A DNA stretch of 64,000 nucleotides. It comes from Escherichia coli (GTDB lineage Bacteria > Pseudomonadota > Gammaproteobacteria > Enterobacterales > Enterobacteriaceae). The translations under genes were made by a program, and so were the position numbers. The notes under the pieces are model-generated. The model did not search any database and was not told the origin of the DNA. It worked only from the letters and a program-made list of their open reading frames with translations. Positions 58,966-64,000 of the stretch are shown here, piece after piece. The DNA lies in assembly GCF_002854065.1 (NCBI RefSeq), contig NZ_CP024147.1; one strand, written 5' to 3'. The stretch's first letter is position 1. Each line of letters opens with the position of its first letter.

Positions 58966-60471
58966 ATGGAAACCAAAGATCTGATTGTGATAGGTGGCGG
59001 CATCAATGGTGCTGGTATCGCGGCAGACGCCGCTGGACGCGGTTTATCCGTGCTGATGCTGGAGGCGCAGGATCTCGCTTGCGCGACCTCTTCCGCCAGT
59101 TCAAAACTCATCCACGGTGGCCTGCGCTACCTTGAGCACTATGAATTCCGCCTGGTCAGCGAGGCGCTGGCTGAACGTGAAGTGCTGCTGAAAATGGCCC
59201 CGCATATCGCCTTCCCGATGCGTTTTCGCCTGCCACATCGTCCGCATCTGCGCCCGGCGTGGATGATTCGCATTGGTCTGTTTATGTACGATCATCTGGG
59301 TAAACGCACCAGCCTGCCGGGATCAACTGGTTTGCGTTTTGGCGCAAACTCAGTGTTAAAACCGGAAATTAAGCGCGGATTCGAATATTCTGACTGTTGG
59401 GTAGACGACGCCCGTCTGGTACTCGCCAACGCCCAGATGGTGGTGCGTAAAGGCGGCGAAGTGCTTACTCGTACTCGTGCTACTTCTGCTCGTCGCGAAA
59501 ACGGCCTGTGGATTGTGGAAGCGGAAGATATCGATACCGGCAAAAAATATAGCTGGCAAGCGCGCGGCCTGGTTAACGCCACCGGCCCGTGGGTGAAACA
59601 GTTCTTCGACGACGGGATGCATCTGCCTTCGCCTTATGGCATTCGCCTGATCAAAGGTAGCCATATTGTGGTGCCGCGCGTGCATACCCAAAAGCAGGCC
59701 TACATTCTGCAAAACGAAGATAAACGCATTGTGTTCGTGATCCCGTGGATGGACGAGTTTTCCATCATCGGCACCACCGATGTGGAATACAAAGGTGATC
59801 CGAAAGCAGTGAAGATTGAAGAGAGTGAAATCAATTACCTGCTGAAAGTGTATAACACGCACTTTAAAAAGCAGTTAAGCCGTGACGATATCGTCTGGAC
59901 CTACTCCGGTGTGCGTCCGCTGTGTGATGATGAGTCCGACTCGCCGCAGGCTATTACCCGTGATTACACCCTTGATATCCATGATGAAAACGGCAAAGCA
60001 CCGCTGCTGTCGGTATTCGGCGGTAAGTTGACCACCTACCGCAAACTGGCGGAACATGCGCTGGAAAAACTGACGCCGTATTATCAGGGCATTGGCCCGG
60101 CATGGACGAAAGAGAGCGTGCTGCCGGGTGGTGCCATTGAAGGCGACCGCGACGATTACGCAGCTCGTCTGCGCCGTCGCTATCCATTCCTGACTGAATC
60201 ACTGGCGCGTCATTACGCACGCACTTACGGCAGCAACAGCGAGCTGCTACTCGGCAATGCGGGGGCGATAAGCGACCTCGGGGAGGATTTCGGTCATGAG
60301 TTCTACGAAGCGGAACTGAAATACCTGGTGGATCACGAATGGGTCCGCCGCACCGACGATGCCCTGTGGCGTCGCACAAAACAAGGCATGTGGCTGAATG
60401 CGGATCAACAATCTCGTGTGAGTCAGTGGCTGGTGGAATATACGCAGCAGAAGTTGTCGCTGGCGTCGTAA
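58966..60471 (+). CDS. glpD: Aerobic glycerol-3-phosphate dehydrogenase GlpD (501 aa)
   Basis: Start METKDLIVIGGGINGAGIA (FAD fold). Confidence 0.97.
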   Translation: METKDLIVIGGGINGAGIAADAAGRGLSVLMLEAQDLACATSSASSKLIHGGLRYLEHYEFRLVSEALAEREVLLKMAPHIAFPMRFRLPHRPHLRPAWMIRIGLFMYDHLGKRTSLPGSTGLRFGANSVLKPEIKRGFEYSDCWVDDARLVLANAQMVVRKGGEVLTRTRATSARRENGLWIVEAEDIDTGKKYSWQARGLVNATGPWVKQFFDDGMHLPSPYGIRLIKGSHIVVPRVHTQKQAYILQNEDKRIVFVIPWMDEFSIIGTTDVEYKGDPKAVKIEESEINYLLKVYNTHFKKQLSRDDIVWTYSGVRPLCDDESDSPQAITRDYTLDIHDENGKAPLLSVFGGKLTTYRKLAEHALEKLTPYYQGIGPAWTKESVLPGGAIEGDRDDYAARLRRRYPFLTESLARHYARTYGSNSELLLGNAGAISDLGEDFGHEFYEAELKYLVDHEWVRRTDDALWRRTKQGMWLNADQQSRVSQWLVEYTQQKLSLAS

Positions 60472-60534
60472 ATTAACGTAAGGTGATCAGGTCAGATTTC
60501 AATCTGGCCTGAGACTGATGACAAACACAAAATT

Positions 60535-60630
60535 GCCTGATGCGCTACGCTTATCAGGCCTACGTGGTTTATGCAATATGTTGAATTTGCATGATTTTGT
60601 AGGCCTGAGAAGGCGTTCACGCCGCATCAG
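60535..60630. repeat. BIME: two REP units in inverted orientation (GCCTGATGCGCTACGCTTATCAGGCCTAC and GTAGGCCTGAGAAGGCGTTCACGCCGCATCAGG)
   Basis: REP consensus recognised downstream of glpD. Confidence 0.75.
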
Positions 60631-60684
60631 GAATGAACAAAGTGCACTTTGTCAACAATCTGACCTACTTTTTGAGTCAGAGAA

Positions 60685-61287
60685 TTACCGCAAAGCCCAC
60701 GCCATCATACCCAACGTAACAAAACTCAGGCACGTTCCCCACTCACTCCACTTCCGTATCTGGCTTCTATTTTTGCTACGCCACTGGCAATAATATCCCA
60801 ACGCAAAACCAAGCTGTGCGCTTATTGGACCGATAAAATCCGTCCACGGCTGAGGCCAAAATGGCGAAAAATTCAGGGGTAGCCAGACAACAAGCAGAAA
60901 GAAATTGCGGATACTTTCCAGCAACGCAATTTTCGCTGGCGCGATGTAAAAAATGATATTCCAGAGGATCAACCATAAATAGACCGGTGCGAATACCAAC
61001 CAACAATGGAGCCTGCTTTTCAATTCAGATTGAGTTCTACGAGTAAATTGCCAACCAACGCAACACATTACACAGAAGAAAAGCGCATATTCAGCCGATA
61101 ACCAAAGTTGTAATTGCAGAAGTGAAATACGCCTGATCATGAGCGGGATTGAGAACAGCATTTCCCCCAGAAAACTCAGCGTGATAATACAAGCAGCCAG
61201 CGCAACCACCATCGGCCACACCAACAACGGCACAATAACAAAGCCGAGAAATAACGGATAAATATAAAGTCTGATTATATTCATCAT
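60685..61287 (-). CDS. Uncharacterised multi-pass membrane protein (200 aa), paralogous to the N-terminal domain of the 505-aa protein upstream
   Basis: ORF 200 aa, mostly hydrophobic; start ATG overlaps upstream stop (TAATG); shared segments with 62305..63822 N-terminus. Confidence 0.75.
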   Translation of the reverse strand: MMNIIRLYIYPLFLGFVIVPLLVWPMVVALAACIITLSFLGEMLFSIPLMIRRISLLQLQLWLSAEYALFFCVMCCVGWQFTRRTQSELKSRLHCWLVFAPVYLWLILWNIIFYIAPAKIALLESIRNFFLLVVWLPLNFSPFWPQPWTDFIGPISAQLGFALGYYCQWRSKNRSQIRKWSEWGTCLSFVTLGMMAWALR

Positions 61288-62279
61288 TATTGTCCTGATG
61301 ATTCGGGGGATGCTTCATACAGCAGCACATACCCCACATCCTCTACCAACTGTTGCCCCTGCTGACTTATAAACCAGTCAACAAATTTCTGCGTTTCCGG
61401 CGTGGGATTTTCACGCGTCACCATATAGGCATCCACAATGTATGGATAAGTGCCGTTGCGGATATTTTCCTCGGTAGGCGCAACGCCATTTATAGCCAAA
61501 AGTTTAATCTGCTTGCGCATTTTGAGCATATTGTCATTCATACGAGTGACGTAATAGTGGAAGGTGTACCCAATGGAAGATGGCGTGTTTTGATAGTCGG
61601 CAACTTCAGTAATTAAACCGCCCATAAGATCAATCACAGTAGATTTTTTAGCTGGCAGCATTGGGGTGTCTTGCATAACCAATCCCTTCATAATCGTTTG
61701 GCTTCCAGAATCTTCAGGGCGCTGCCAGACTTTTATATGTTCGTCACTACCACCTACTTTATTCCAGCGGCTAGTTTTGCTGCTAAAAATATCTTTAACC
61801 TGGTGCTCAGAGAGAGAATTTACCGGGTTATTAATATCAACGATAAAGACAAAGGCTTCGCGGGCGAAAGCGGTATATTTCAGTTTAACACCCGCTTCTT
61901 CTGCACGTTTTTTCTGTCCTTCCGACGGTTGTGCAACAAAAATAACCGTCGCGGAACCTTTAATCAGACTATCGTAGGCTTCAGCTGTTCGGGTTTGCTG
62001 CAAACCATACGCCTGCCAGGCCAGCGAGGTTCGATCCTTATCTTTTGGCTCGGGTACTAATTTATAATACGCGGAGGCATACAGCGGGTATAAGGCTGTA
62101 GCGCCGTACACTCTCGGCCATCTTGACCAATCATCGCTGTAACGTAATGCAGGTTGCCCCCGCAGAGACGTCAGTCCATGGCTCTCTTCTTCCCTGACGC
62201 TGTTATAGTACCCTTCCCGGTCGACACATCCCGCCAGTAACGCCGTGCCTAATAGTAAAACACCGGTGAATTTATTCAT
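61287..62279 (-). CDS. Uncharacterised lipoprotein with PstS-like (PBP_like_2) phosphate-binding-protein-family domain, about 330 aa; start at MNKFTGVLLLGTALLAGC
   Basis: Lipobox LLAGC; motifs QRPEDSGSQT, IGYTFHYY, APTEENIRNG resemble PstS DGSGTSF / GAIGYVEY / SPTEENF; ORF-track start at 62342 would overlap the upstream gene. Confidence 0.8.
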   Translation of the reverse strand: MNKFTGVLLLGTALLAGCVDREGYYNSVREEESHGLTSLRGQPALRYSDDWSRWPRVYGATALYPLYASAYYKLVPEPKDKDRTSLAWQAYGLQQTRTAEAYDSLIKGSATVIFVAQPSEGQKKRAEEAGVKLKYTAFAREAFVFIVDINNPVNSLSEHQVKDIFSSKTSRWNKVGGSDEHIKVWQRPEDSGSQTIMKGLVMQDTPMLPAKKSTVIDLMGGLITEVADYQNTPSSIGYTFHYYVTRMNDNMLKMRKQIKLLAINGVAPTEENIRNGTYPYIVDAYMVTRENPTPETQKFVDWFISQQGQQLVEDVGYVLLYEASPESSGQ

Positions 62280-62304
62280 CTCGCTGATTCCTTTCTCTCG
62301 AGCG

Positions 62305-63822
62305 TTATTCCATTGTTGGATACAGCGGCACATATCCCACATCTTCTACCAGACTCTGCCCCTGCGGCGTTAAAAACCATTCGACCAGTTTTTGTGTTTC
62401 TGACGTTGTATTTTCCCTCGTTACCATAAAGGCATCGACGATATAGGGATATTTGCCGTTGCGAATATTTTCCGCAGTCGGTGTAATACCGTTAATCGCT
62501 AGCAGTTTTATATTTTTATCAGCATTCATTTGCGTCGCGTAATAGCGGAAGGTATAGCCTATTGCGTTGTTTGTATTACGGTATTCGGCAACGACTTTAA
62601 TCATTCCCTCCATCACGCTTGCCACTTCCATTTCCTGCGGCGAGATCATGCGGACATTTTTCATGACCTGTGATTGCATCACTGTCTGGCTGCCAGAGTC
62701 TTCCGGGCGCTGCCAGGTCTGGATCTCCTGATCGTTACCGCCAACAGTACGCCAGTTGGTAATTGCACCACTGAAAATGTCACGCACCTGTTGTTCAGTC
62801 AGGGAATTAACCGGATTATCCGCATTGACGATGAAAACGAATGCTTCACGGGCAAAGGGGGTGTACAGCAAAGTGACACCAGATTCCTTTGCACGTTTTT
62901 TTTGCCCACCGGAAGGTTGCGCCACGAAAATAATATCAGCATCGCCCTTAACGATTTTGTTATATGCTTCTGGCGTACGAGAGTTTTCCAGATAATCCCA
63001 AACGTGAAAATCCTCTGGTATTACACTTAATGCATAAAATGCAGAAGCATAAATTGGGTACGCAGCCGTGGCGCCATCGATTCGCGGCCAGTTTTGCCTA
63101 AACTGAATTTGCGGTTTGCCACGCAGCGGCGTCAGTCGATTATTGAGTTTATCGGGTTGCCAGGCCCAGATATCAATATTTTCGCGTACACCGACACCAG
63201 GATTGAGCTGTTTATATAAATAACCCTGATAACCAGCGACAAAACCAAGCATGAGAAGGATAAACAGGAGGGAATTACGGCAACGTAGCCCGGATGTACC
63301 GGTTAAAGGATGTCTGGTTGGCCGGCCGTACCCCAGCGAAAAACTGATATGCGCGCCAACGGGTATAATGACTATCCACCAGTACTCACCTCCGACTACT
63401 GAGACTAACAAAACGCCCAGCCAGGGGAGCATAAGATCAGCCAACCAACCCGATCCCATCTGGTGAAATTGATAATCTGCCAGATGCAGCGCGATTATCC
63501 AGCCAACCAGGATTAATAAAGCGGGTACTAAAAAAAGACATTGTCGCCAGACGGCTATTTCTCTTTTTTCTGGTGCACTATCGCCTGCCCATACTCGCCC
63601 CGAGAAAAATAGCATTAATGCGCCCAGCGCCAGCATAAAAATGTTGAGCAGAAGGTAAATTGTTGGCGTGATAAGGATATTACAAACTTCAATAATACCG
63701 GCAAGTCCGACACCCAGCATAGCAACAACCGCCGCCAAAAATTGCGTCAGTATGGGGATGCCGAAAAAAGTCATTACCAGCGAGGACAAAATCCATTTTC
63801 TGTTTTGCATTATTCTTTCCAT
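62305..63822 (-). CDS. Uncharacterised fusion protein (505 aa): N-terminal multi-pass membrane domain plus C-terminal PstS-like periplasmic binding domain
   Basis: First about 215 aa hydrophobic; C-terminal domain paralogous to the downstream lipoprotein (QRPEDSGSQT, IGYTFRYY, TPTAENIRNG); -10-like TATAAT 18 nt upstream. Confidence 0.8.
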   Translation of the reverse strand: MERIMQNRKWILSSLVMTFFGIPILTQFLAAVVAMLGVGLAGIIEVCNILITPTIYLLLNIFMLALGALMLFFSGRVWAGDSAPEKREIAVWRQCLFLVPALLILVGWIIALHLADYQFHQMGSGWLADLMLPWLGVLLVSVVGGEYWWIVIIPVGAHISFSLGYGRPTRHPLTGTSGLRCRNSLLFILLMLGFVAGYQGYLYKQLNPGVGVRENIDIWAWQPDKLNNRLTPLRGKPQIQFRQNWPRIDGATAAYPIYASAFYALSVIPEDFHVWDYLENSRTPEAYNKIVKGDADIIFVAQPSGGQKKRAKESGVTLLYTPFAREAFVFIVNADNPVNSLTEQQVRDIFSGAITNWRTVGGNDQEIQTWQRPEDSGSQTVMQSQVMKNVRMISPQEMEVASVMEGMIKVVAEYRNTNNAIGYTFRYYATQMNADKNIKLLAINGITPTAENIRNGKYPYIVDAFMVTRENTTSETQKLVEWFLTPQGQSLVEDVGYVPLYPTME

Positions 63823-63892
63823 TCTTTCTGAATGGCGAAATTATACTCCCCGAGTCCCCTTGCCCCTTCTGGACACTTTTCCGAAATGATGG

Positions 63893-63921
63893 CGAAAAAA
63901 ACGGGACCCTTTGGCCCCGTT
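63893..63921 (-). terminator. glgP intrinsic terminator (minus strand AACGGGGCCAAAGGGTCCCGTTTTTTT)
   Basis: Hairpin followed by T7 immediately downstream of the glgP stop. Confidence 0.7.
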
Positions 63922-63937
63922 CTATTTATTGGTGAAA

Positions 63938-64000
63938 TTACAATCTCACCGGATCGATATGCCAGATATGATCAGCGTACTCTTTGATAGTACGGTCAGA
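63938..64000 (-). CDS. glgP: Glycogen phosphorylase GlgP, 3' end only (…SDRTIKEYADHIWHIDPVRL)
   Basis: Partial ORF running off the window; C-terminal sequence recognised. Confidence 0.8.
   Translation of the reverse strand, partial: SDRTIKEYADHIWHIDPVRL

What the first reader, a model, noticed from the sequence alone, without database searches (positions are those of the whole stretch)
60472..60684. BIME (paired inverted REP units) between glpD and the new operon
Two REP units in opposite orientation (60535..60563 and 60598..60630) lie downstream of glpD and downstream of the 200-aa membrane gene. Such elements can stabilise upstream mRNA and bind gyrase/IHF; here it marks the boundary between the conserved glp locus and the variable region.
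Basis: seen in the sequence. Interest (0 to 1): 0.2.

Follow-up and report, generated by a model that had tools for sequence, protein, structure and literature searches.

The report
Known BIME-1 repeat after glpD

Summary
Two REP units in opposite orientation lie at 60534-60563 (+, short Z type) and 60599-60633 (inverted Y type), separated by a 35-nt linker, between the convergent genes glpD and a 200-aa ORF.

With its conserved flank motifs the repeated unit spans about 60512-60664. Its architecture is that of BIME-1 (also called RIB or RIP): Z-type REP, long conserved linker with an IHF-like core, Y-type REP, in single copy. It is the ortholog of K-12 REP256 (92.5% identical).

Linker-bearing copies occur at a median of 27 places per genome in 5425 of 5426 complete E. 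coli genomes. Rfam's ES036/CssrF model hits the linker above its gathering score.

Two parts of the interpretation need correcting:
- Strong gyrase binding is documented for BIME-2, not BIME-1.
- The element does not mark the conserved/variable boundary. In 3021 genomes homology ends at the glpD stop codon, and a short intrinsic-terminator-like hairpin replaces the whole spacer. The K-12 deletion that created yzgL starts 60 bp inside the 200-aa ORF.

Compensatory changes among orthologs support each REP folding on itself. The most likely role is a 3'-end element for both convergent transcripts (decay barrier, Rho-assisted termination) plus an IHF site. It is already known and of low interest.

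The parts
60487..60512 (+). Locus-specific hairpin just after the glpD stop (arms 60487-60498 and 60501-60512). It lies outside the repeated family unit and has no T-run after it.
   Evidence: Inverted repeat I3. It folds at -18.1 kcal/mol. It is absent from the paralog alignment. No terminator-like site is found in 60300-60900.
60512..60533 (+). Left flank motif of the repeated unit (AGACTGATGACAAACACAAAAT), partly inverse-complementary to the right flank motif.
   Evidence: Conserved in paralogs at entD-fepA, rhlE-ybiA and yhaC-rnpB. Inverted repeat I2. BLAST paralog hits start at 60511.
60534..60563 (+). Short Z-type REP / palindromic unit (TGCCTGATGCGCTACGCTTATCAGGCCTAC), ending in CTAC.
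   Evidence: Local hairpin of -13.2 kcal/mol. 100% of cells paired across orthologs, with one U-A to A-U double change at 60538/60556.
60564..60598 (.). 35-nt long linker (L type), GTGGTTTATGCAATATGTTGAATTTGCATGATTTT. It contains the IHF-like core ATTCAACATATTG at 60574-60586 on the - strand (1 mismatch to WATCAANNNNTTR) and a small internal hairpin.
   Evidence: Highly conserved in paralogs and orthologs. IHF core match, not significant on its own. Rfam RF02751 ES036/CssrF hits 60556-60598 (-) at 39.3 bits against a gathering score of 37.6. A consensus linker query finds a median of 27 places per genome.
60599..60633 (-). Y-type REP / palindromic unit in inverted orientation. The + strand reads GTAGGCCTGAGAAGGCGTTCACGCCGCATCAGGAA. 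It is a variant copy with two stem mismatches.
   Evidence: It matches the E. coli Y-type REP GTAGGacgGATAAGgCGttCACGcCGCATCcGGCA listed in PMC2817692. Local hairpin of -15.1 kcal/mol against -20.9 for the family consensus. Double changes among orthologs at 60606/60629 and 60613/60622.
60634..60664 (+). Right flank motif of the repeated unit (TGAACAAAGTGCACTTTGTCAACAATCTGA), including the palindrome ACAAAGTGCACTTTGT at 60637-60652.
   Evidence: Conserved in paralogs. Inverted repeats I2 and I6. The PKF11-type deletion endpoint lies at about 60646.
60656..60673 (+). CAATCTGACCT, a direct repeat of 60500-60510 and complementary to 60489-60498, followed by ACTTTTT. This is a possible remnant of an older glpD terminator tail (speculative).
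   Evidence: D3 and I4. The hypothetical element-free sequence folds as a hairpin followed by a U-run. No unoccupied site was found.

Best explanation
The spacer contains one complete BIME-1 (also called RIB or RIP), the ortholog of E. coli K-12 REP256. From left to right it consists of a left flank motif, a short Z-type REP, a 35-nt conserved L linker with an IHF-type site, an inverted Y-type REP and a right flank motif, spanning about 60512-60664. It sits between the convergent genes glpD and a 200-aa ORF.

Shown here: its identity, anatomy, family membership and orthology.

Inferred mechanism:
1. When transcribed from either side, each REP folds on itself into a stable hairpin. These hairpins act as a barrier to 3'-to-5' exonucleases and so protect the upstream message.
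2. Together with the Rho-binding stretch mapped just downstream in K-12, the element helps end glpD transcription by Rho. This allele has no intrinsic terminator.
3. On DNA, the linker is a probable IHF site.

The element probably originated as a non-autonomous repeat spread by the REP-associated Y1 transposase. That is a literature-based view and was not tested here.
For: Anatomy and chance:
- The gapped REP stem pattern hits only these two sites in 64 kb, with 0 expected. The arms are inverted.

Family:
- The core 60511-60664 recurs at other loci at 83-90% identity, for example at entD-fepA, rhlE-ybiA and yhaC-rnpB.
- The alignment shows the same five-part layout with conserved flanks and linker.
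- A consensus linker query finds 150,874 places, a median of 27 per genome.
- Rfam ES036/CssrF hits the linker above its gathering score.

Definition of BIME-1:
- z1 + y with a long, well-conserved L linker that frequently carries an IHF site, in single copy (PMC3333891; PMC2817692).

Orthology:
- K-12 is 92.5% identical over the 213 nt.
- REP256 at NC_000913.3 3563583-3563680 maps to window 60536-60633.

Structure:
- The + strand folds at -82.5 kcal/mol (z -7.5) and the - strand at -71.7 (z -5.8).
- Under the local hairpin model 92% of cells pair, 3 pairs carry changes on both sides, and 0 of 500 shuffles reach the covariation score. Slid controls reach only 24-36% paired.

Termination:
- There is no intrinsic-terminator-like site in this allele.
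- In K-12, an in vitro Rho-binding peak on the + strand at 3563672-3563779 (window 60625-60732) overlaps REP256. A 'BST' interval starting at 3563650 is flagged in the same table. The preprint's text places REP-overlapping Rho-binding sequences at 78 REPs.
- The same preprint reports that REPs between convergent genes correlate with higher expression of both genes.
Against: - No experiment bears on this strain.
- The IHF core match alone is not above chance: 69 matches at up to 1 mismatch against 49 expected in the window.
- 3021 of 5426 genomes lack the element at this locus and use a plain hairpin with a T-tail instead. The element is therefore dispensable.
- The Y REP here has two stem mismatches, and in some lineages its left arm has decayed to GTAGACAAAATAAGG.
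- The preprint stresses that REP effects depend on context and that REPs do not uniformly lengthen half-lives.
- The covariation sample is small (9 distinct, related sequences). Double changes could also come from gene conversion by other copies rather than from selection.
- My reading of 'BST' as a bicyclomycin-sensitive transcript is from my own knowledge, not from the text.
Confidence: 0.85

Rival explanations
1. It is a selfish or neutral repeat with no role at this locus: a non-autonomous element deposited long ago and drifting since. Any effect on glpD expression is incidental.
For: - 56% of E. coli genomes have a BIME-less allele with an ordinary terminator-like hairpin.
- The Y REP is degraded in several lineages and imperfect here.
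- Deletions remove or clip neighbouring sequence freely.
- REP/BIME spread by a Y1 transposase is proposed in PMC3333891.
Against: - The copy is retained, with its linker almost invariant, in E. coli and in two unclassified Escherichia species representatives.
- Three stem pairs show double changes that keep pairing.
- The K-12 ortholog overlaps a Rho-binding peak.
Confidence: 0.3
2. It is an independent small-RNA gene (ES036/CssrF-like) transcribed from the minus strand across the linker.
For: Rfam RF02751 matches 60556-60598 (-) at 39.3 bits, above the gathering score of 37.6. CssrF was detected by northern blot at a different locus (dacB/yhbZ) in Shigella flexneri (PMC3071730).
Against: - The 43-nt model is just the BIME-1 linker plus the REP head, a sequence present at a median of 27 places per genome. 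The hit therefore reports repeat membership.
- There is no promoter-like site in 60300-60900 on either strand.
- The stretch lies in the 3' region of the 200-aa ORF's transcript, so any RNA could simply be a 3'-UTR fragment.
Confidence: 0.05
3. The functional form is one long hairpin or cruciform in which the left REP pairs with the right REP, as in the minimum-free-energy fold, rather than two separate REP hairpins.
For: The MFE of the whole spacer uses REP-to-REP pairing (-82.5 kcal/mol, against -53.1 for the all-local structure). In this strain the arms are 93-100% complementary (I1 and I5).
Against: Across orthologs this pairing shows 0 double changes and variation only breaks pairs: 86.7% paired, no better than shuffles. 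The A-U swap in the left REP of 30COLEC and O15_8X keeps the local stem but breaks the inter-REP pair. During transcription the local hairpins would form first (inference).
Confidence: 0.1
4. It is simply the Rho-independent (bidirectional) terminator of glpD and the 200-aa ORF.
For: It consists of stable GC-rich hairpins between convergent genes. The preprint notes that about 40% of REPs between convergent genes fall in predicted bidirectional terminators.
Against: No hairpin-plus-T-run site occurs on either strand in 60300-60900. The only T-run (60669-60673) is not adjacent to a REP stem. The BIME-less allele does have such a site.
Confidence: 0.1

Closest known systems
BIME-1 (also called RIB or RIP) of E. 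coli; specifically REP256 of K-12 MG1655, between glpD and yzgL
   Same: - Same locus and same five-part layout (Z-type REP, long L linker with an IHF-type core, inverted Y-type REP, conserved flanks).
- Single copy, at the 3' ends of convergent genes.
- 92.5% identity over the 213-nt spacer.
   Different: - 16 substitutions. These include A-to-G at 60581, which falls on an N position of the IHF core.
- Y REP variants: CCTGAG...ATCAGGAA here against CCAGAT...ATCCGGCA in K-12, and GGCG/CGCC here against GACG/CGTC.
- Here the downstream gene is an intact 200-aa ORF rather than the yzgL fusion remnant.
BIME-2 (Y + Z2 REPs, short S linker, tandem arrays; the gyrase-preferred class)
   Same: It is built from inverted REP units of the same superfamily and is extragenic.
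   Different: This element has a long conserved linker, a single copy and a short Z unit. The literature read here assigns strong gyrase binding and cleavage to BIME-2.
Rfam RF02751 ES036 (CssrF) sRNA
   Same: The 43-nt model aligns end to end with 60598-60556 (-) at 39.3 bits.
   Different: The model is a fragment of the repeat (linker plus REP head). There is no evidence of an independent gene here, and no promoter-like site.
REP325 / naRNA4 (an array of REP pairs in the yjdM-yjdN operon)
   Same: [quoted passage not shown]
   Different: REP325 is a six-repeat array between tandem genes. The naRNA4 model scores only 22.5 and 18.9 bits here against a gathering score of 59.5.

Membership tests
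REP / palindromic unit (E. coli) | An imperfect palindrome of about 30-35 nt with the conserved GTAG(G)/(C)CTAC tetranucleotide at the foot of the stem | tested here: met
   Both units carry it: CCTAC at 60559-60563 and GTAGG at 60599-60603. Stems fold at -13.2 and -15.1 kcal/mol. The definition is from PMC3333891.
REP / palindromic unit (E. coli) | A match to the rigid classical 36-nt consensus with a fixed loop (my recollection of the early consensus) | tested here: not met
   0 hits at up to 3 mismatches. Both units differ from that string by indels in the loop region, and the gapped version matches both exactly. This is a limitation of the pattern, not of the elements.
REP / palindromic unit (E. 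coli) | Highly repeated and extragenic | tested here: met
   128,726 places in 5425 genomes, a median of 21 per genome at megablast sensitivity. It is intergenic here and at the three paralogous loci examined.
BIME-1 (RIB/RIP) | Two REPs in inverse orientation, one Y type and one Z1 type | tested here: met
   The inverse orientation is shown. The right unit matches the published Y sequence. The left unit is the short Z form that accompanies the L linker in every paralog examined. Calling it 'z1' rests on that association and on the definition, because the figure that gives the z1 sequence was not readable.
BIME-1 (RIB/RIP) | A long, well-conserved L linker between the two REPs | tested here: met
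   The 35-nt linker is nearly identical to those at entD-fepA, rhlE-ybiA and yhaC-rnpB. The consensus linker is found at a median of 27 places per genome. There is an Rfam ES036 hit.
BIME-1 (RIB/RIP) | The linker carries an IHF binding site | tested here: inconclusive
   The core ATTCAACATATTG at 60574-60586 (-) has 1 mismatch to WATCAANNNNTTR and an A/T-rich stretch 5' of it. Such matches are not above chance in the window (69 against 49 expected). Binding itself cannot be tested with these tools.
BIME-1 (RIB/RIP) | Occurs as a single copy, not a tandem array | tested here: met
   There are only two REP units in the spacer and in the whole 64-kb window.
BIME-1 (RIB/RIP) | Located at the 3' end of transcription units | tested here: met
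   It lies between the stop codons of the convergent genes glpD and the 200-aa ORF.
BIME-2 | Y + Z2 REPs with a short S linker, in tandem copies | tested here: not met
   The linker is 35 nt and of the conserved L type, and the element is a single copy.
Rfam RF02751 ES036/CssrF sRNA | Score at or above the family's gathering threshold | tested here: met
   39.3 bits against 37.6, full model length 1-43.
Rfam RF02751 ES036/CssrF sRNA | Expressed as a discrete small RNA from its own promoter | not testable with these tools
   There is no promoter-like site and no expression data for this strain.
Intrinsic (Rho-independent) terminator | A GC-rich hairpin immediately followed by a T-run | tested here: not met
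   0 sites in 60300-60900. By contrast there is 1 site in the BIME-less allele.

The most novel reading that the evidence does not exclude
This BIME-1 copy was inserted, using an 8-nt microhomology (CAATCTGA), between the stem and the U-tract of an ancestral intrinsic terminator of glpD. That would have converted the glpD 3' end from intrinsic to REP/Rho-dependent termination. The trace would be the 11-nt direct repeat CAATCTGRCCT at both ends of the element and the orphaned ACTTTTT tail at 60667-60673. The roughly 43:56 split in E. coli between this allele and the plain-terminator allele would then be a natural experiment on what a REP element does to a highly expressed gene.
Probability: 0.15. 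Interest if true: 0.3.

Novelty: already known. Interest (0 to 1): 0.1.

Why it matters
It matters little in itself. The element is a textbook E. coli repeat that is already annotated in K-12 as REP256, and its general properties (IHF-type linker, mRNA 3'-end protection, Rho-assisted attenuation) are published.

- The element is a BIME-1, not the gyrase-preferred class.
- It is part of the variable segment rather than its border.

There is also one practical point. The glpD 3' end is naturally dimorphic in E. coli: BIME-1 with no intrinsic terminator in about 43% of genomes, and a plain terminator-like hairpin in about 56%. That offers a ready-made allele pair for testing REP function on a strongly expressed gene.

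Tried and rejected
- **Rigid 36-nt REP consensus with 3 mismatches:** 0 hits. Rejected as a test because both units differ by loop-length indels; the gapped stem pattern works.
- **IHF core consensus scan:** the site is present, but the consensus is too weak to be significant.
- **Nissle-type allele as an 'empty site':** rejected. The whole spacer and the last ~37 nt of the downstream ORF are non-homologous, so it is an allelic replacement and not an insertion/deletion of the element.
- **Search for a true unoccupied site:**
  - A synthetic junction query returned only 2-piece (occupied) matches among the 25 spread rows listed; this was not exhaustive.
  - A junction-only query gave 0 of 5426 genomes at ≥80% coverage.
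  - A left-flank scan of species-representative genomes returned two Escherichia sp. loci, both occupied, plus two chance hits in unrelated MAGs.
  - An exact junction scan of metagenome contigs gave 0.
- **Original RIB and BIME papers (PMC413762, PMC333889):** not held.
- **Paper searches for 'ES036' and 'yzgL':** they returned almost only irrelevant matches.
- **K-12 RefSeq feature table:** it lists no repeat feature in this interval. The REP256 name and coordinates came from a preprint supplement instead.
- **MFE long hairpin as the conserved structure:** rejected on covariation.

Full report
**Setting.** The window is E. coli chromosome. The order is glpR, glpG and glpE on the - strand, then glpD on the + strand (annotated start equivalent 58966, stop codon ending at 60471), then a 213-nt spacer (60472-60684). 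After that, all on the - strand, come a 200-aa ORF with no Pfam match (60685-61287), two PBP_like_2/PstS-family ORFs, and glgP at the window's edge. A Gambian human isolate is 100% identical over the spacer.

**1.
- The left unit TGCCTGATGCGCTACGCTTATCAGGCCTAC occupies 60534-60563.
- The right unit reads GTAGGCCTGAGAAGGCGTTCACGCCGCATCAGGAA at 60599-60633, that is, a REP on the opposite strand.
It has a fixed loop, and both units differ from it by indels.
- The two conserved stem halves with a free loop (GATGCG N4-22 YCMGGCCTAC) match exactly these two sites and nothing else in 64 kb, with 0.00 expected in shuffles. The tail motif matches at 0 and 1 mismatch.

**2. What it is.**
- The core 60511-60664 is a dispersed repeat: 128,726 places in 5425 of 5426 complete E. 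coli genomes.
- Copies at entD-fepA, rhlE-ybiA and yhaC-rnpB align over the same five parts:
  1. a left flank motif (ACTGATGACAAACRCAAAAY);
  2. the short Z-type REP;
  3. a 35-nt linker centred on TGCAATATATTGAATTTGCA;
  4. an inverted Y-type REP;
  5. a right flank motif ending in CAACAATCTGA.
- Similarity stops at about 60512 on the left and about 60664 on the right. The hairpin at 60487-60512 just after the glpD stop is therefore locus-specific and not part of the repeat.
- A consensus linker query finds 150,874 places, a median of 27 per genome.
- Ton-Hoang et al. define BIME-1 as z1 + y REPs separated by a long, well-conserved L linker that frequently carries an IHF site, occurring singly. 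They define BIME-2 as z2 + y with a short linker in tandem arrays (PMC3333891; see also PMC2817692). This element fits BIME-1 on every feature I could test.
- The linker contains ATTCAACATATTG (60574-60586, - strand), 1 mismatch from the IHF core WATCAANNNNTTR. The strain-specific A-to-G at 60581 falls on an N position. That core match is not significant by itself (69 matches against 49 expected). The IHF assignment therefore rests on family membership and not on the motif.
- Rfam independently recognises the linker. RF02751 (ES036/CssrF) aligns end to end at 60598-60556 (-) with 39.3 bits against a gathering score of 37.6, and it is the only above-threshold Rfam hit in the whole window. Because that 43-nt sequence occurs dozens of times per genome, I read the hit as repeat membership and not as an sRNA gene. 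No promoter-like site is present.

**3. It is already catalogued.**
- K-12 MG1655 has the same spacer at 92.5% identity with no indels.
- A supplement table of bioRxiv 10.64898/2026.03.23.713779 lists REP256 as convergent between yzgL and glpD, at 3563583-3563680. That maps to window 60536-60633.
- The same table shows an in vitro Rho-binding peak on the + strand at 3563672-3563779 (window 60625-60732), with and without NusG, overlapping REP256. It also flags a 'BST' interval starting at 3563650. I take BST to mean bicyclomycin-sensitive transcript; that is my reading, since the main text does not define it.
- The preprint's text says such peaks overlap 78 REPs. [quoted passage not shown]

**4. 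Structure.**
- The spacer folds far better than shuffles on both strands: -82.5 kcal/mol (z -7.5) and -71.7 (z -5.8).
- The MFE pairs the left REP with the right REP into one long hairpin. The all-local alternative scores -53.1.
- I aligned twelve orthologs, nine of them distinct, including two unclassified Escherichia species representatives.

| Model | Cells paired | Pairs with changes on both sides | Controls |
|---|---|---|---|
| Local REP hairpins | 92% | 3 | 0 of 500 shuffles reach the covariation score; slid controls 24-36% paired |
| REP-to-REP pairing | 86.7% | 0 | variation only breaks pairs |

- The three double changes under the local model are:
  - U-A to A-U at 60538/60556;
  - U-A and G-C variants at 60606/60629;
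  - G-C to A-U at 60613/60622.
- The sample is small and the sequences are related, so this is modest evidence. It does favour the classical picture of each REP folding on itself.
- The Y REP is imperfect here (two stem mismatches, -15.1 against -20.9 for the family consensus), and its left arm has decayed in some lineages.

**5. The boundary claim.** Coverage counts from four searches partition the 5426 genomes almost completely.

| Class | Genomes | Basis |
|---|---|---|
| Full arrangement, as in this window | 871 | |
| K-12-type deletion | about 917 | 1788 - 871, |
| PKF11-type | about 571 | 2359 - 1788, |
| BIME-less allele | 3021 | |

- **BIME-less allele (Nissle 1917, HB-Coli0, AH25).** Homology with the window ends at the glpD stop codon. 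It resumes only at 60722, at 77-79% identity, inside a 201-aa homolog of the 200-aa ORF. The spacer is 51-53 nt and carries a terminator-like hairpin with a T-rich tail, GCCCGGTTGTGAAGTGCAACCGGGC TATTTG. The window allele has no such site.
- **K-12.** It lacks window 60745-63592, with a 4-nt overlap at the junction. From those coordinates I infer that yzgL is a fusion: the start of the 505-aa PstS-like ORF joined to the last ~20 codons' worth of the 200-aa ORF.
- **PKF11-type.** It lacks 60647-61079. Its left endpoint lies inside the palindrome of the BIME's right flank motif.
- The conserved block therefore ends at the glpD stop codon. The BIME belongs to one of two old alleles of the variable segment, and only one of the three rearrangement endpoints touches it.

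**6. Gyrase.** The papers I could read attribute preferential gyrase binding and cleavage to BIME-2, with BIME-1 having lower affinity (PMC1475751; PMC6379681; PMC2817692). 'Binds gyrase' is not a good expectation for this copy.

**7. Most likely mechanism (inferred).** The element is transcribed as the 3' UTR of glpD (+ strand) and of the 200-aa ORF (- strand).
- The REP hairpins impede 3'-to-5' exonucleolytic decay.
- Because the allele lacks an intrinsic terminator, glpD transcription probably ends by Rho acting on the stretch just downstream of the right REP, as the K-12 data suggest.
- On DNA the linker is a probable IHF site.
- I put identity at about 0.95 and this functional picture at about 0.5-0.6.
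- The main rival is that this copy is a tolerated, essentially neutral repeat (0.3). That rival is supported by its absence from 56% of genomes and by decay of the Y REP in some lineages.

**8. A loose end.**
- CAATCTGGCCT (60500-60510, the 3' arm of the post-glpD hairpin) is repeated as CAATCTGACCT at 60656-60666, which is the last 8 nt of the element plus 3 flank nt. That right copy is followed by ACTTTTT. In addition, 60489-60498 is perfectly complementary to 60657-60666.
- Deleting 60501-60656 in silico yields a hairpin followed by a U-run. One reading is that the element was inserted into an older intrinsic terminator by microhomology.
- I found no unoccupied site that could test this:
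  - 0 of 5426 E. coli genomes;
  - 0 metagenome contigs;
  - both non-coli Escherichia genomes that share the flank are occupied.
- The paralogs do not show such a flank repeat. I rate this reading at about 0.15.

**Verdict.** It is already known and of low interest.

Noticed in passing
window 60745-63592 (against K-12 L001 3789-3792): K-12 lacks this 2.85-kb segment. From the deletion coordinates, yzgL looks like a fusion of the first ~73 codons of the 505-aa PstS-like ORF with the last ~20 codons' worth of the 200-aa ORF. About 917 of 5426 genomes share the K-12-type arrangement.
   Followed up: partly
window 60472-64000; L003, L004, L005, L006: The glpD-glgP interval is a mosaic, hypervariable locus. 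This window has a 200-aa ORF plus two PBP_like_2/PstS-family ORFs. HB-Coli0 and AH25 have 201-, 255- and 236-aa ORFs plus one PstS-like ORF. Nissle 1917 has the same ORF trio (the third annotated as YbbD family) followed by a fimbrial operon, and PKF11 also has a fimbrial operon. The 200/201-aa ORFs are only 77-79% identical between alleles.
   Followed up: partly
L003 3801-3853 (Nissle 1917), against window 60472-60684: The glpD 3' end is dimorphic. 3021 genomes have a 51-53-nt spacer with a terminator-like hairpin and a T-rich tail. 2359 have the 213-nt spacer with a BIME-1 and no terminator-like site. This is a natural allele pair for testing REP function.
   Followed up: yes
window 60500-60510 and 60656-60666; tail at 60667-60673: An 11-nt direct repeat, CAATCTGRCCT, abuts both ends of the element, and the right copy is followed by ACTTTTT. 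Removing 60501-60656 in silico recreates a hairpin followed by a U-run. No unoccupied site was found in the E. coli genomes, the metagenome contigs or the two other Escherichia genomes that share the flank.
   Followed up: yes
window 60647-61079 (against L004 3968-3975): The PKF11-type deletion (about 571 genomes) has its left endpoint inside the palindrome ACAAAGTGCACTTTGT of the BIME's right flank motif, with an 8-nt overlap at the junction. This is the only rearrangement endpoint that touches the repeat.
   Followed up: partly
window 60556-60598 (-): Rfam RF02751 (ES036/CssrF sRNA) is in effect a model of the BIME-1 linker plus the REP head. That sequence occurs at a median of 27 places per E. 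coli genome, so hits to this family may mostly report the repeat rather than a distinct sRNA gene.
   Followed up: partly
window 62305-63822 (-) and 61287-62342 (-): Two adjacent PBP_like_2/PstS-family ORFs whose mechanically called reading frames overlap by 38 nt. In the 505-aa ORF the binding-protein domain begins only at about residue 247, after a long hydrophobic N-terminal region. That is an unusual layout for a PstS-like protein. The adjacent 200-aa ORF has no Pfam match.
   Followed up: no
alignment A4 columns 130-163 (window 60599-60633): In SWHEFF_68, PRO_A and KFu014 the left arm of the Y REP has decayed to GTAGACAAAATAAGG, while the linker and the Z REP stay intact. In this window and four other orthologs the Y REP stem carries T-A (CCTGA...TCAGG), which makes it resemble the Z REP stem.
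   Followed up: partly
whole window 1-64000: This is the only REP/BIME in the 64-kb window by the stem-pattern scans, and the ES036 match is the only Rfam hit at gathering thresholds.
   Followed up: yes
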